From the human T2T-CHM13v2.0 reference genome, Homo sapiens: DNA of 64,000 nt. Under the pieces are notes generated by a model that saw only the letters and a program-made list of their open reading frames with translations, made no database searches and was not told where the DNA came from. Below, piece by piece: positions 21,211-41,250 of the stretch. Positions within the stretch are counted from its first letter, which is position 1; each line of letters starts with the position of its first letter. Both the position numbers and the translations under genes were made by a program. Location of the stretch: the NCBI RefSeq assembly GCF_009914755.1, contig NC_060925.1; one strand, written 5' to 3'.

Positions 21211-22313
21211 CTGACAGCCTCTCTTTTCAATTTCCATAATACATTTCTGTATCAGAAGGGGCACCATCAGTCCTATATTTTCTTTCTCTACAACTTTTTG
21301 AATATCAACTCCAAATATTATTGGTTCTTGGTTTATATCTAGTCCATGAAGAGAATTCTCCCACTGTTCCATAAGAGTCACTTTCACATAAATAAGACCT
21401 CTAGGTTCAAGTTTGACAGCCAACTGATGAGTCTTTGTCACTCTAAATAAGGTGGGAAGAACAACAGTTCCATGACAACAAACTCGATTTTTTCTTGGAG
21501 TGGGTTCCCAACTGAATACTACTAGTTTCAAATGTTGTGCATTTTCAATTTCTATGTTGAAAGTGTGATCCATGTCTAAAAATGTTGTTCGGCATGTGAG
21601 CAAAGCTGTTCTTGCTTTGTTTACTGAATCTACCTGAATTGCACAAAAGACGTCTTTTGAATCTATCCGAGGTGGTTTTAAATCCTCAGCACCATAGAAA
21701 TGTACACTCATGAGCCCAGATATGTACTGTGAACACTTAGGTTGATCAGAAAAGCTATAATGCCTAAAAGCATCAATGTCTATTTCATTCTTGCTACAAC
21801 TATTTGAAATTATTTCTTTTCCTTTTCCAAATTTGTTTTCAGATCCATGTTTGCTAGCTTTAGTTGTAAGTTCAGGTGAGTCTCCATCACTAAGGTAACC
21901 ACCTTTGCAGGAATACTTAGAACTCATAGAGTTTTTCTTCTGGTAGCTCTGCTGGGAGGATACACTGGTATCAAGATGGTATCGGCTTATAACATTCCTC
22001 TTAGCAGCGGTGGTTGTGTTCCCAGAGGGCAGAATATCAGTATGATGAATTTCTCGGCAGTTATATTTAGACAAAGAAGGAGTATTATCTGGACTGTTTA
22101 TATAATTCAATGTTCCCTTAACGCTTAGCTTTCGGCTAAATTCTGGCAACTTTTTCATTTTCATGGAAAGTTTCCTCACAGTTCGTGGAGATTTTATTTT
22201 ATCTGGCAATGACCAATTAATTGAACTGCCTTTTTTCACAGGGCTAGGATTTGGAGAAGATGGTTCCATAATTCCCAATTCAGTACTATTTGTAGCAGCC
22301 AGGATCCCAGAAC
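21211..22313 (-). CDS. SYDE2: SYDE2 coding exon 3 (C2 domain and start of RhoGAP)
   Basis: Acceptor ctttcttttaAG; [20 protein letters not shown]...IEKRGCQ. Motifs [20 protein letters not shown] and [10 protein letters not shown], a C2-like beta region, and IFGVDI...VPLLIQKC (RhoGAP start). Donor CAG|GTATTA; 1103 nt, ends in phase 0. Confidence 0.96.
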
Positions 22314-39366: not shown

Positions 39367-40111
39367 CTGTCAGCGTAATTCTTTGGTCTGGAGGCACCGA
39401 CAGGACACGGTTTTCACGCACTTTCAAAGCGCCCACATTTGGGGAGGCTGCCTGCGTTCCTGTGACTTTGGGAGCCGTCCCACGGGCACGACCCTTCATT
39501 CCCAGGGACAGCAGACGCCCTTTGTACATCCACTTCTGCAGCTTCTTGACTGTCACTGCCGGCGGCCTGAGGAAGGAGGGGCCTTCCTGGCGGTCTCCTT
39601 TGCCACTGCGTATCACAGAGGACCCCGCTGGATCCCTGAAAGGGCTTCCCGAGGAGCAGCCGTGGTCCTTGCAGCCTGGAGGCTGGAGGCCGGTGGGTGC
39701 AGCCGCCCGGGCGCGGTCCCCACTCCAGCCGTCCATCCTGCCTCCACGTGGCGGGGGCTCGTCCCAGTCCCGGTGCGCGCCGCACCTGATCCAGCTGTCG
39801 CTCGGCCACCGCTGGAAGGGAGGCGGCTTGGCACCCACCCGGAGGCTCTCGAGGCTTCTGCTGCAGGACGGCCGCATCCGAGGAGTCCGCAGCTGGCCTC
39901 CCCGCGGCTCCCTCTGAGGCGACCGGGGCGGGGACACCTGCTGCCGAGGGCGTCCGCCGCCTCCCCGCTCCCCGTCCCGGGGGCAGGCTCGGCGGTACGC
40001 GGCGCCGCGGGAAGGCGGCTGGCCCGGAGCCCGGGCTCCCGCGGGGAAGCTGTGATCCGCCAAGCCCCTGCCGCCCCGCCGCGCGCCCGAGTCAGGGGGC
40101 AGGTCGTGCAT
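39367..40111 (-). CDS. SYDE2: SYDE2 coding exon 1 from the MHDLPPDSG start (see findings for the upstream in-frame extension to 40702)
   Basis: ORF reads [14 protein letters not shown]...DQRITLT, which I recognise as the human SYDE2 reference N-terminus. Donor CAG|GTAGGA at 39367/39366; 745 nt, ends in phase 1; lies in a CpG island. Confidence 0.93.
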
Positions 40112-41250
40112 GGCCTGGATCAGCAGATAATAGGCCTCTCGCAACTGGGTCCGCAGCCTGCCTGTCTCCAGGCGGCCGCCCTCCGCCCCCAGGGAGGAGC
40201 CCGCCGCTGGGGGAGGCGGGGGACGCCGTTCCGCCTCCGCCCCCTCAGGCTCGGGCGCAGACTGCGAGCCGCCGGGCAGGTTTTCGTAGTAGTCGGCGTC
40301 GTAGTCGTCTTCGTCCTTGTCGTCTTCCTCCTCCTCTCCGCTGCCCTCGGAGCCCTCCGGGGAGTGCGGAGGGGCGTGAGCGAGCCCATGGCTCTGGGGG
40401 GCGGCCTCCTGCCCGCCGCGCGGCCGAGGCCCGAGCGCCCCCAACTGCTCCGGGTGCCCTCCGGGGACCCGCGCCCCGGGACCCCACGCCTCAGGTGACG
40501 GCGAGGGCTGCTGTAGGCTCCGCCCGTGTCCCCCGGCGTGCTCACGTGGGAGGGTGTCTGCGGCACCCCAGGCGTCTCCCGCGGCTGCCGAAGAGGCCGC
40601 CACCGCAGCTGCGGCTGCCGCCCGGAGCCCTAGCCCCCCGGTGCCGCGGGGACCCCGCCTTCCCCGGAGCCTGGACAGCGTCCTCCTCAGAGGGTCCGCC
40701 ATCCCCTCTGCCTTAGCCGCGAGGCTCACCCCCGCCAGGGGGAGAGGTCGGAGCCCCGCTGGGGAGAAAACCGCGCTCGCGGAGGCGGAGGCGGAGGCGG
40801 CGGCGGCTCCCCATGACCGGCGCTGGCCCTCGCCGGCTCCTCACATACTTGGCATAACTCTGCCGCGGGAAGGCGTGGGGGAGGGCGGTGGCGCCGCAAC
40901 GCGCATGCCCCGGAGCCCCGGGCCGCGACGGGGCGCGCGGGCCGGGGGCGGCAGAGGTGGGTTCTCGGGGTGGGCGAGTGGTGCAGGTGGAGGCGGAGGG
41001 CGCGGGCCGGTAGGTTGAGTAGTAGGTCGGCTGAAGCTGACCGACGGAAGCAGGGGTGGGCGCACAGAGCGCGAAGGGTGCGGGGAGAGTTGAGGCAGGG
41101 GAAAGAAGAACGAGCAGGAACGTGAGTTTGGGCTGGTGGCTGCAAAGTTTTGGTTAGGGAGCCCGAGAAAGGGAAAGTGCCCTCCTGGCTGTCACCCCAG
41201 CACCTTCACCGCCACCGCTGCACGAGGTGTGTCTTAGGCACAGCAAGTCC
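39400..41250. promoter_or_regulatory. CpG island / SYDE2 promoter and first exon
   Basis: Abrupt switch to very high GC with dense CpG. GC boxes (GGGGCGG near 40945), a GCGCATGC NRF1-like core at 40901-40908 and a GGC/GGAGGC repeat at 40781-40807. No TATA box. Confidence 0.9.

What the first reader, a model, noticed from the sequence alone, without database searches (positions are those of the whole stretch)
40112..40702. 197-codon in-frame N-terminal extension of SYDE2 starting with an SYDE1-like [15 protein letters not shown] motif
Seen: the frame is open for 591 nt upstream of ATG 40111 (MHDLPP; context gccATGc). ATG 40702 is the first in-frame ATG after the in-frame TGA at 40841-40843 and has a stronger Kozak context (gggATGG). 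Recalled knowledge: the human SYDE2 reference protein starts MHDLPPDSG, and the paralog SYDE1 starts [16 protein letters not shown], which closely matches [15 protein letters not shown] here. A likely amphipathic helix [20 protein letters not shown] runs across the shorter start. Inference: 40702 is the ancestral start and the reference protein may lack 197 aa.
Basis: partly seen in the sequence, partly recalled or inferred. Interest (0 to 1): 0.85.

Follow-up and report, generated by a model that had tools for sequence, protein, structure and literature searches.

The report
Missing N-terminus of human SYDE2
The human reference SYDE2 protein appears to start 197 amino acids too late: the upstream stretch is conserved coding sequence from sharks to apes and begins with the same short motif as its sister gene SYDE1, though whether human cells mainly make the long form still needs transcript and ribosome data.

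Summary
On the minus strand the SYDE2 frame is open from TGA 40843-40841 to the annotated ATG 40111. ATG 40702 (GGGATGG) is the first in-frame ATG and adds 197 codons.

Openness alone proves little at 71-79% GC: 1095 of 20000 shuffles stay open. Conservation is the real evidence.
- 60 of 89 mammal, reptile and frog SYDE2 models start with the same motif, and 75 of 89 hold sequence upstream of MHDL.
- 110 of 120 shark, fish and amphibian models also start with it.
- The extension is as conserved as the accepted rest of exon 1.
- The best-conserved block, residues 176-205, is a confident AlphaFold helix (177-199) that the annotated Met198 cuts off.
- SYDE1 exon 1 in the same genome starts [16 protein letters not shown], and the profile match has E 2e-7.
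- Upstream of ATG 40702 the frame is not conserved, and human has stops in all three frames.

No human transcript, ribosome or peptide data could be reached. RefSeq starts all five human transcripts at 40131, so a real internal start site remains a live rival.

Verdict: an ancestral coding extension (near certain) that is probably missing from the human reference (about 0.7). This is an annotation correction of a known kind.

The parts
40112..40702 (-). 197-codon in-frame extension of SYDE2 exon 1, proposed true residues 1-197
   Evidence: The frame is open. It is conserved in frame in 75 of 89 tetrapod models and 110 of 120 fish, shark and amphibian models. Mean identity to human is 0.61, against 0.67 for the accepted rest of exon 1.
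40700..40702 (-). Proposed start codon ATG, context GAGGGGATGG (G at -3, G at +4)
   Evidence: It is the first in-frame ATG after the stop at 40843. M1 is invariant in 40 of 40 aligned sequences.
40655..40702 (-). Residues 1-16, [16 protein letters not shown]: an N-terminal signature shared with SYDE1
   Evidence: Mean identity is 0.90 over 39 orthologues. SYDE1 exon 1 reads [16 protein letters not shown]. hhalign gives probability 93.6% and E 2.1e-7, confident only over these residues. The helical hydrophobic moment is 0.70-0.75, against a mean of 0.29. AlphaFold gives a weak helix at 5-10, pLDDT about 58.
40274..40294 (-). Residues 137-143, DYYENLP, at the end of an acidic run ([26 protein letters not shown])
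   Evidence: D137 and N141 are invariant. Y138, Y139, E140, L142 and P143 are at least 90% conserved. An acidic YYxN block is present in 118 of 120 shark, fish and amphibian models.
40106..40174 (-). Residues 177-199: a conserved helix ([21 protein letters not shown]) whose last two residues are the annotated Met198-His199
   Evidence: AlphaFold2 predicts helix 177-199. Block pLDDT is 87 for residues 181-190 and 90 for 191-200. It is the only high-confidence element in residues 1-375. Block 176-205 has identity 0.92, with 21 of 30 positions at least 0.9 identical. Invariant residues are R182 L183 Q186 L187 E189 A190 Y191 L193 L194 A197 M198 D200.
40109..40111 (-). Annotated start codon of NM_032184.2, context CAGGCCATGC, 20 nt from the annotated transcript start at 40131
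   Evidence: Hub annotation. The Met is invariant in 40 of 40 sequences, but it sits inside the conserved helix.
40841..40843 (-). In-frame TGA that closes the frame upstream
40703..40906 (-). Likely 5' leader. It holds upstream ATGs at 40906, 40855 and 40846 (in frame, all closed by TGA 40843) and at 40814 (out of frame, closed at 40715). It also holds a GCGGAG repeat at 40779-40806.
   Evidence: Upstream peptides of hippo, cetacean and three unnamed genomic ORFs match the human leader best in a different frame from the CDS (scores 160-259 against 42-145). The DNA is therefore conserved but the frame is not.
40120..40389 (-). Out-of-frame 89-codon ORF from ATG 40389 (AGAGCCATGG), ending 9 nt before ATG 40111
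   Evidence: On a long-leader mRNA, ribosomes that skip 40702 would meet this ATG before 40111 (inference).
39367..40111 (-). Accepted coding part of SYDE2 exon 1 (reference residues 1-248 plus one base of the split next codon; proposed residues 198-445)
   Evidence: Hub annotation.

Best explanation
Window 40112-40702 (minus strand) is genuine SYDE2 coding sequence. It is the ancestral first 197 codons of exon 1.

Proposed mechanism. Transcripts that begin upstream of 40702, probably near the upstream edge of the CpG island around 40850-41000, are translated from ATG 40702. The product is about 1391 aa.

The new N-terminus carries three conserved elements.
1. A 16-residue basic, leucine-spaced motif shared with SYDE1.
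2. An acidic DYYENLP motif.
3. A 23-residue helix.

The reference model NM_032184.2 (Q5VT97, 1194 aa) starts its transcript at 40131 and its protein at Met198, two residues from the end of that helix. It most likely reflects a 5'-incomplete transcript model in a 71-79% GC exon.

Shown here: the open frame, and conservation of the start, the frame and the motifs from sharks to apes. Also shown: paralogy of the start motif with SYDE1, the confident helix, and loss of frame conservation upstream of 40702.

Inferred: the position of the human TSS, actual translation in human, and what the N-terminal elements do. By analogy with SYDE1, whose N-terminal disordered region binds Munc18-1 and liprin-alpha2 and is proposed to autoinhibit the GAP domain, they are probably partner-binding or autoregulatory elements.
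For: Open frame and contexts.

Orthologues. One search returned 89 SYDE2 hits (E <= 1e-3, lengths 780-2225).
- 60 start with the motif at residue 1 (58 by regex, plus P0034 and P0036 read).
- 9 have the motif internally, after an even earlier start.
- 6 start inside the extension or are partial.
- 14 start at MHDL.
- There are 33 different motif-Met to MHDL-Met distances among 67 models, all keeping both ends in one frame.

Deeper taxa. One search used a shark SYDE2 N-terminus: 156 hits, the best 120 listed. In one search, 110 of 120 start with the motif, 115 of 120 have the helix block (at residues 135-433) and 118 of 120 have the acidic YYxN block.

Alignment A1 (40 sequences). There are 15 invariant columns in residues 1-197 against 18 in residues 198-445.

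- 36 of 197 positions are at least 0.9 identical, against 47 of 248 in the accepted part.
- Block 176-205 has identity 0.92.
- Human departs from a consensus of 85% or more at 0 positions.

AlphaFold2 on A1 predicts helix 177-199 at pLDDT 87-90.

SYDE1. Exon 1 in the same genome starts [16 protein letters not shown]. 11 SYDE1-type and 8 SYDE2-type representatives start with the motif. hhalign gives E 2.1e-7.

Boundary. Human has stops in all three frames within 141 nt upstream of 40702. The leader frame is not conserved between lineages.

Unspliced genomic ORF calls from 15 unnamed contigs also cover extension sequence continuous with exon 1.

How the error could persist.
- The Methods of the MANE paper say the automated TSS update used CAGE clusters overlapping the first exon or within 500 nt of its first base (PMC9007741, passages). 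Base 40703 is 572 nt from 40131.
- The annotated 5' UTR is 20 nt. UTRs of that length favour leaky scanning (PMC13219423, passages).
Against: No human transcript, CAGE, Ribo-seq or mass-spectrometry evidence could be reached.
- The RefSeq RS_2025_08 table given with the finding lists five human transcripts, none reaching beyond 40131.
[quoted passage not shown] The model starts at an A preceded by a pyrimidine, as a CAGE-set end would.
- 14 of 89 orthologue models start at MHDL.
- Met198 is invariant in 40 of 40 sequences, which is compatible with a conserved alternative start.
- The human open frame alone is not significant.
- If the TSS lies upstream of 40814 or 40906, upstream ATGs precede 40702. 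One uORF ends only 10 nt before it, which could depress its use.
- Orthologue models are mostly automatic predictions that prefer long ORFs, so they are not independent proof of translation.
- No nucleotide-level test (PhyloCSF, dN/dS) could be run, because no vertebrate DNA other than this genome was available.
Confidence: 0.72

Rival explanations
1. There are two real isoforms. The extension is ancestral coding sequence, but in human an internal promoter or TSS near 40131 dominates. The 1194-aa protein starting at the invariant Met198 would then be the main product. The long form would be minor, tissue-restricted or developmentally restricted.
For: - All five RefSeq human transcripts start at 40131 (hub annotation).
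- MANE 5' ends were set from FANTOM CAGE (PMC9007741).
- GENCODE calls almost all MANE TSSs accurate.
- Met198 is invariant in 40 of 40 sequences.
- 14 of 89 orthologue models start at MHDL, some in species that also have a long model, such as Cercocebus P0004 against P0068.
Against: - Met198 lies two residues from the end of a confident, nearly invariant helix. The short form would lose a conserved structural element.
- A 20-nt leader is a poor context for initiation.
- The MANE search window of 500 nt would have missed a TSS upstream of 40702.
- Exonic CAGE tags are common (recalled knowledge).
- Several MHDL-start models are older 'PREDICTED' or Ensembl-derived entries and may copy the human model (inference).
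Confidence: 0.2
2. The extension is a relic in human. It is ancestral coding sequence that still happens to be intact, but it is no longer transcribed or translated in the human lineage.
For: There is no human model with it in RefSeq (hub annotation). An intact frame at this GC content is weak evidence on its own.
Against: - Human is 96% identical to orangutan over 260 residues.
- Human departs from a consensus of 85% or more at 0 of 445 positions.
- The start codon, all three motifs and the frame are intact.
- Apes and monkeys have long models.
Confidence: 0.05
3. It is a chance open frame in a GC-rich 5' UTR or promoter, with no coding function in any species.
For: 1095 of 20000 shuffles stay open. 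Other frames in the island have open runs of 169-332 codons.
Against: - The start motif, the acidic YYxN block and the helix are conserved in frame from sharks to human, despite many length changes between them.
- The start motif is paralogous with that of SYDE1.
- Conservation equals that of the accepted CDS.
- Frame conservation stops exactly at ATG 40702.
Confidence: 0.02

Closest known systems
Human SYDE1 N-terminus (chr19 paralogue)
   Same: Both begin with Met-Ala-Asp/Glu-Pro-Leu-(Leu)-Arg-Arg/Lys-Thr-Leu/Phe-Ser-Arg-Leu-Arg-Gly-Arg at residue 1. The profile-profile match has E 2.1e-7. Both are followed by a long disordered region, then C2_SYDE and RhoGAP domains.
   Different: Beyond the first 16 residues the extension has no detectable match to SYDE1. 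A genome-wide search with the 197 aa found only itself; the next best hit had E 0.045 and was not on chr19. The hhalign confidence is high only at residues 1-16. The AYYLLI regex, a proxy for the helix block, matched only SYDE2-type representatives and none of the SYDE1-type ones; the DYYENLP block was not searched for in them.
Long SYDE2 models of other vertebrates, such as Pongo abelii isoform X2, Microcebus murinus isoform X1 (1390 aa), Balaenoptera (1372 aa), Tiliqua, Hyperolius and Heptranchias perlo
   Same: They have the same start motif, acidic block and helix in the same order and frame. In Microcebus C2_SYDE is at 875-994 and RhoGAP at 1028-1186. In Pongo they are at 876-995 and 1029-1187. 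This is the numbering the human protein would have with the extension.
   Different: Those are mostly automatic predictions for other species. The human reference lacks the region. The middle of the extension (residues 17-130) is poorly conserved, with identity 0.47, and varies in length.
Human reference SYDE2 (NM_032184.2; UniProt Q5VT97, 1194 aa)
   Same: It is identical from Met198 onward (hub annotation).
   Different: It lacks residues 1-197 and starts two residues before the end of the conserved helix. This is the form used in the SYDE family analysis PMC8918327 (passages). A 2026 preprint (10.64898/2026.08.31.748432, passages) uses mouse A0A0G2JEY9 as 'full-length', with a bacterial SYDE2 fragment spanning residues 507-944. 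Long rodent models have C2_SYDE at 800-945 and RhoGAP at 953-1137. If that fragment spans the C2 and RhoGAP region, as I assume and the passages do not say, that construct is also N-terminally shorter (inference).
Invertebrate-type SYD-1 (PDZ-C2-RhoGAP)
   Same: It has C2_SYDE and RhoGAP domains. 3 representatives with a PDZ domain start MQW[RK]K.[FL]TRLK, loosely like the vertebrate ...[RK][RK]T[FL]SRLRG.
   Different: It has a PDZ domain and an MLCCGRRKE segment that vertebrates lack. The resemblance is short, untested statistically, and seen in only 3 unnamed representatives.

Membership tests
SYDE (vertebrate SYD-1 homologue) C2-RhoGAP family | C2_SYDE (PF25336) followed by RhoGAP (PF00620) in the same gene | tested here: met
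   C2_SYDE is at window 21361-21720. Long orthologues carry both domains. RhoGAP was not itself scanned in the window's later exons.
SYDE (vertebrate SYD-1 homologue) C2-RhoGAP family | N-terminal signature MA[DEQ]PL(L)[RK][RK]T[LFI]..[RK]LRG at residue 1 | tested here: met
   - Human ATG 40702 gives [15 protein letters not shown].
- SYDE1 exon 1 gives [16 protein letters not shown].
- 19 vertebrate-type representatives start with it.
- 60 of 89 and 110 of 120 orthologue models start with it.
- hhalign gives E 2.1e-7.
- The signature is my own definition from these calls, not a curated family feature. Pfam has no model for it: 0 families on the 445-aa exon-1 product.
AUG-initiated N-terminal CDS extension missed by a 5'-incomplete reference transcript | Uninterrupted frame from an upstream AUG into the annotated CDS | tested here: met
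AUG-initiated N-terminal CDS extension missed by a 5'-incomplete reference transcript | Start codon and reading frame conserved across species, with amino-acid conservation like the accepted CDS | tested here: met
   M1 is invariant in 40 of 40 sequences. 36 of 197 positions are at least 0.9 identical, against 47 of 248 in the accepted part. Conservation reaches sharks.
AUG-initiated N-terminal CDS extension missed by a 5'-incomplete reference transcript | Coding signature ends at the proposed start (leader not conserved in frame) | tested here: met
   Human has stops in all three frames at 40843, 40728 and 40715. Other lineages' upstream peptides match human in a different frame.
AUG-initiated N-terminal CDS extension missed by a 5'-incomplete reference transcript | Nucleotide-level purifying selection (PhyloCSF, dN/dS) over the extension | not testable with these tools
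   No vertebrate DNA other than the window's own genome could be fetched. Only protein models were compared.
AUG-initiated N-terminal CDS extension missed by a 5'-incomplete reference transcript | Human capped transcripts that include the upstream AUG | not testable with these tools
   No CAGE or long-read data were available. RefSeq lists none (hub annotation). The MANE method looked only within 500 nt.
AUG-initiated N-terminal CDS extension missed by a 5'-incomplete reference transcript | Ribosome footprints or peptides from the extension | not testable with these tools
   No data were available. The supplements of PMC5834625 list only a downstream SYDE2 variant peptide, S422L.
Chance ORF in a CpG-island 5' UTR | No cross-species conservation of frame or residues | tested here: not met
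   Conserved in frame from sharks to human.
Alternative-promoter pair of N-terminal isoforms | Downstream start codon conserved | tested here: met
   Met198 is invariant in 40 of 40 sequences. However, it lies in a block where nearly every residue is invariant, so this is not specific.
Alternative-promoter pair of N-terminal isoforms | Two separate TSS clusters in human | not testable with these tools
   No TSS data were available.

The most novel reading that the evidence does not exclude
The 16-residue N-terminal motif is an ancient regulatory element of the whole SYD-1/SYDE family, perhaps reaching invertebrate PDZ-type SYD-1. It could be an amphipathic basic helix that autoinhibits the GAP domain or docks a partner or membrane. 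Human SYDE2 would switch this motif, the DYYENLP motif and the 177-199 helix on and off through alternative TSS use. The 1194-aa 'reference' protein used in all functional work would then be a naturally or artificially de-regulated short form.
Probability: 0.2. Interest if true: 0.65.

Novelty: new member of a known kind. Interest (0 to 1): 0.5.

Why it matters
If the long form is the real human protein, about 14% of SYDE2 (197 of about 1391 residues) is missing from the MANE Select, RefSeq and UniProt reference. That has several consequences.
- Peptides from this region cannot be identified in standard proteomics searches.
- Motif and interaction analyses have worked on a protein without its family-defining N-terminus and without a conserved helix (PMC8918327; preprint 10.64898/2026.08.31.748432).

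It also shows a systematic blind spot. When the true TSS lies more than 500 nt upstream of a 5'-truncated model in a very GC-rich exon, an automated CAGE-based end correction cannot reach it.

Tried and rejected
- Human-only statistics (shuffles, stop frequencies, codon-position GC) show the open frame alone is not informative.
- A genome-wide six-frame search with the 197 aa found no paralogous copy. The best non-self hit had E 0.045 on C14. I did not follow hits L002-L004.
- Pfam finds no family in the 445-aa exon-1 product.
- A near-length protein search gave 15 hits. 14 come from unnamed contigs and one is a named Zalophus record (P0248). In the 8 where my regex found the exon-1 end, the ORF continues into 'GR...' intron-like sequence. 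They are therefore genomic, not cDNA, and give no transcript evidence.
- Literature searches:
  - 'SYDE2' plus 'N-terminal extension' gave 0 papers.
  - 'SYDE2' plus 'start codon' gave 1 irrelevant paper.
  - A badly formed OR-type search listed no SYDE2 paper among the 20 shown.
  - The Mudge 2019 PhyloCSF supplements have no SYDE2 in the 9 files searched; 3 files could not be searched.
  - The Zhu 2018 proteogenomics supplements have only a downstream variant peptide.
- No DNA from other vertebrates could be obtained, so PhyloCSF or dN/dS was not possible.
- AlphaFold gives no fold for most of the region (mean pLDDT 46.5), so no fold search was run.
- The idea that Ser10 is a conserved phospho-acceptor is weakened, because muroid rodents have Gly there. 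It is dropped as a claim.
Full report
**What is in the sequence**

- On the minus strand, the SYDE2 exon-1 frame has a single stop between 41100 and the exon end, TGA at 40843-40841.
- The first in-frame ATG after it is at 40702 (GAGGGGATGG). The annotated ATG is at 40111 (CAGGCCATGC). Between them lie 591 nt, or 197 codons.
- The translation begins [15 protein letters not shown] and reads ...[25 protein letters not shown] across the annotated start.

**Is the open frame more than chance?** Not by itself.

- The region is a CpG island with GC 0.71-0.79 from about 39650 to 41000.
- 1095 of 20000 mononucleotide shuffles of the 591 nt stay open.
- The island's own stop-trinucleotide frequency gives P = 0.23 for 197 open codons.
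- Other frames in 39500-41200 have stop-free runs of 169-332 codons.
- Weak internal support comes from two points. The other two sense frames each have four stops in the interval. GC by codon position is 0.81/0.64/0.81, which resembles the accepted exon-1 CDS (0.69/0.66/0.76) more than the leader (0.80/0.78/0.74).

**Cross-species evidence in tetrapods**

A search of the large protein collection used residues 1-260 of the extended exon-1 product against longer proteins. It gave 89 hits, and all carry C2_SYDE and/or RhoGAP in the precomputed Pfam column. Reading their N-termini and counting them gives:

| Start of the model | Number of 89 |
|---|---|
| Motif at residue 1 (58 by regex, plus P0034 and P0036, which have Lys at position 7) | 60 |
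| Motif internal, because the model starts 33-70 residues further upstream (cetaceans, hippo, Saimiri) | 9 |
| Starts inside the extension, or partial | 6 |
| Starts at MHDL like the human reference | 14 |

- The long models cover apes, Old and New World monkeys, lemurs, rodents, rabbit, carnivores, bats, ungulates and whales. They also cover elephant, xenarthrans, pangolin, tree shrew, marsupials, four squamates and a frog.
- Among the 67 models that have both landmarks, the distance from the motif Met to the MHDL Met takes 33 different values, from 119 to 318 codons. Many length changes have therefore occurred while both ends stayed in one frame.
- These are mostly automatic models that favour long ORFs, so the count is biased toward open frames. 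Even so, 75 of 89 contain sequence upstream of MHDL.

**Cross-species evidence in deeper taxa**

A second search used the N-terminal 420 residues of a shark model (P0090, Heptranchias perlo). It gave 156 hits, with the best 120 listed: sharks, sturgeons, gar, bichir, many teleosts, caecilians, salamanders and frogs.

- 110 of 120 start with the motif. Two of the ten 'misses' are near-variants, namely P0328 (a regex miss) and P0325 (which starts inside the motif).
- 115 of 120 have the helix block, at residues 135-433.
- 118 of 120 have the acidic YYxN block.

The three elements and their order therefore date to the base of jawed vertebrates.

**How well conserved is the extension?**

I aligned human with 39 of the 89 tetrapod hits. 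I chose roughly one per genus and only models that start at the motif. I left out MHDL-start, partial and redundant isoform rows.

- Invariant columns in residues 1-197 are M1 P4 R13 D137 N141 R182 L183 Q186 L187 E189 A190 Y191 L193 L194 A197. That is 15, against 18 in residues 198-445.
- Mean identity to human is 0.61 in the extension, with 36 of 197 positions at least 0.9 identical. In the accepted part it is 0.67, with 47 of 248.
- Conservation is patchy, as expected for a disordered region with short motifs:

| Residues | Mean identity |
|---|---|
| 1-16 | 0.90 |
| 17-130 | 0.47 |
| 131-145 | 0.73 |
| 176-205 | 0.92 |

- Human departs from a consensus of 85% or more at none of the 445 positions.

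**Structure**

- AlphaFold2 on this alignment predicts mostly disorder (mean pLDDT 46.5).
- There is one confident element in the first 375 residues: helix 177-199, with block pLDDT 87 and 90.
- The annotated Met198 is the second-to-last residue of that helix. The reference protein would therefore begin just after removing a conserved 23-residue helix.
- A weak helix at residues 5-10 (pLDDT about 58) overlaps the start motif. That motif's helical hydrophobic moment is 0.70-0.75, against a mean of 0.29 and SD of 0.16.

**Paralogy with SYDE1**

- The C2_SYDE Pfam model located SYDE1 on C19 of the window's own genome. The exon upstream of it reads [23 protein letters not shown].
- An exhaustive search of 1.84 billion representatives with the SYDE2 C2 domain gave 209 hits, with 150 listed.
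- 22 of the 150 start with the motif: 8 SYDE2-type, 11 SYDE1-type and 3 with a PDZ-C2-RhoGAP architecture.
- Among the 55 listed proteins of at least 600 aa that begin with Met, 20 have the motif and 35 do not. Of the 35 without it, four that I scanned (P0148, P0152, P0156 here and P0132, which does not begin with Met) are PDZ-type, and P0094 has the helix block but a different start; the rest were not classified.
- hhalign of the SYDE2 N-terminal profile against a SYDE1 N-terminal profile gives probability 93.6% and E 2.1e-7. Its confidence is high only over residues 1-16.
- The rest of the extension has no paralogue in the genome.

**The boundary at 40702**

- Human has stops in all three frames within 141 nt upstream, at 40843, 40728 and 40715.
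- In hippo, cetacean and three unnamed genomic ORFs the frame stays open further upstream. Their upstream peptides match the human leader best in a frame different from the CDS, with scores of 160-259 against 42-145. Saimiri matches in yet another frame.
- The leader DNA is therefore conserved but its frame is not. This is the pattern of a 5' UTR. Coding-type conservation begins at ATG 40702.
- Those upstream-starting models also suggest, though they do not prove, that mRNAs in those species include the equivalent of human position 40906.

**What could not be shown**

I had no human CAGE, long-read, Ribo-seq or peptide data.

Points against the long form in human:
- All five RefSeq transcripts start at 40131 (hub annotation).
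- MANE ends were set from FANTOM CAGE (PMC9007741, Methods passages).
- GENCODE says almost all MANE TSSs are accurate (PMC11701607, passage).

Points for the long form in human:
- The same Methods say the automated step only considered CAGE clusters overlapping the first exon or within 500 nt of its first base. A TSS upstream of 40702 is at least 572 nt away from 40131.
- The resulting 20-nt leader is in the range that favours leaky scanning (PMC13219423, passages).
- On a long-leader mRNA, the next AUG after 40702 is an out-of-frame one at 40389 in a strong context. Its 89-codon ORF ends 9 nt before 40111. ATG 40111 would thus be hard to reach by scanning (inference).
- The GC-skew sign change near 40850 fits a TSS near the upstream edge of the island (inference from general knowledge of CpG-island promoters).

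**Mechanism proposed**

- Transcription starts upstream of 40702, and translation starts at 40702, giving a protein of about 1391 aa.
- The new N-terminus supplies three elements:
  1. A basic motif with Leu at positions 5, 9 and 12, shared with SYDE1.
  2. An acidic DYYENLP motif. Its Tyr-x-Asn fits the Grb2-type SH2 consensus (recalled, not tested).
  3. A conserved helix.
- In SYDE1, the N-terminal disordered region binds Munc18-1 and liprin-alpha2 (PMC8918327, passage). The N-terminal tail and C2 domain are proposed to autoinhibit the GAP domain (preprint 10.64898/2026.08.31.748432, passage).
- By analogy, the SYDE2 extension probably carries partner-binding or autoregulatory functions. 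This step is inference.

**Novelty and score**

- The extension is already present in public models of many species.
- It is absent from human RefSeq RS_2025_08, from the Q5VT97-based family analysis and from the papers searched. The partial supplement checks are.
- I could not inspect current Ensembl or UniProt.
- This is a new case of a known kind of annotation error, not a new kind of biology. It matters for variant interpretation, proteomics and all functional work on SYDE2.
- Interest is 0.5.

Noticed in passing
window 40120-40389 (-): An out-of-frame ATG at 40389 in a strong context (AGAGCCATGG) opens an 89-codon ORF that ends 9 nt before the annotated ATG 40111. On a long-leader mRNA it would intercept ribosomes that skip 40702.
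   Followed up: partly
window 40703-40906 (-): The leader holds four upstream ATGs. Those at 40906, 40855 and 40846 are in frame and closed by TGA 40843. The one at 40814 is out of frame, and its uORF ends at 40713, 10 nt before ATG 40702. The leader also has a GCGGAG x4.7 repeat at 40779-40806, whose length sets the frame relation. In Saimiri the 40814-equivalent ATG is in frame with the CDS.
   Followed up: partly
P0145, P0173, P0178 (unnamed representatives): Three PDZ-C2-RhoGAP (invertebrate-type) SYD-1 proteins start MQW[RK]K.[FL]TRLK, followed by MLCCGRRKE. This is loosely like the vertebrate ...[RK][RK]T[FL]SRLRG start motif and hints that the motif may predate vertebrates.
   Followed up: partly
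P0009: The long Callithrix jacchus SYDE2 protein (A0A8I3W407) is titled 'Mucolipin TRP cation channel 3' in UniRef. This is apparently a mis-naming.
   Followed up: no
P0248: A Zalophus californianus record named 'translation initiation factor IF-2-like, partial' (362 aa) carries the MADPL motif at residue 215. The GC-rich extension seems to have been split off there as a spurious separate gene.
   Followed up: no
window 40274-40294 (-) and SYDE2 exon 2: hhalign placed DYYENLP opposite the IWYNPIPE motif of SYDE1, at moderate confidence. SYDE2 also has its own [13 protein letters not shown] in the next exon (consensus). The two may be related short motifs.
   Followed up: no
P0240-P0254: The large protein collection holds prokaryote-style ORF calls on unnamed short contigs that are plainly mammalian SYDE2 exon-1 genomic DNA. 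One of them, P0240, is 99% identical to human over the extension. Where the exon-1 end could be located (8 of 15), the ORF runs on past it into intron-like sequence.
   Followed up: partly
L002 (G000:C14:67081743-67082114): This was the best non-self genome hit of the 197-aa extension (E 0.045, 30% identity, one TGA inside). It is probably low-complexity Ala/Gly/Pro similarity.
   Followed up: no
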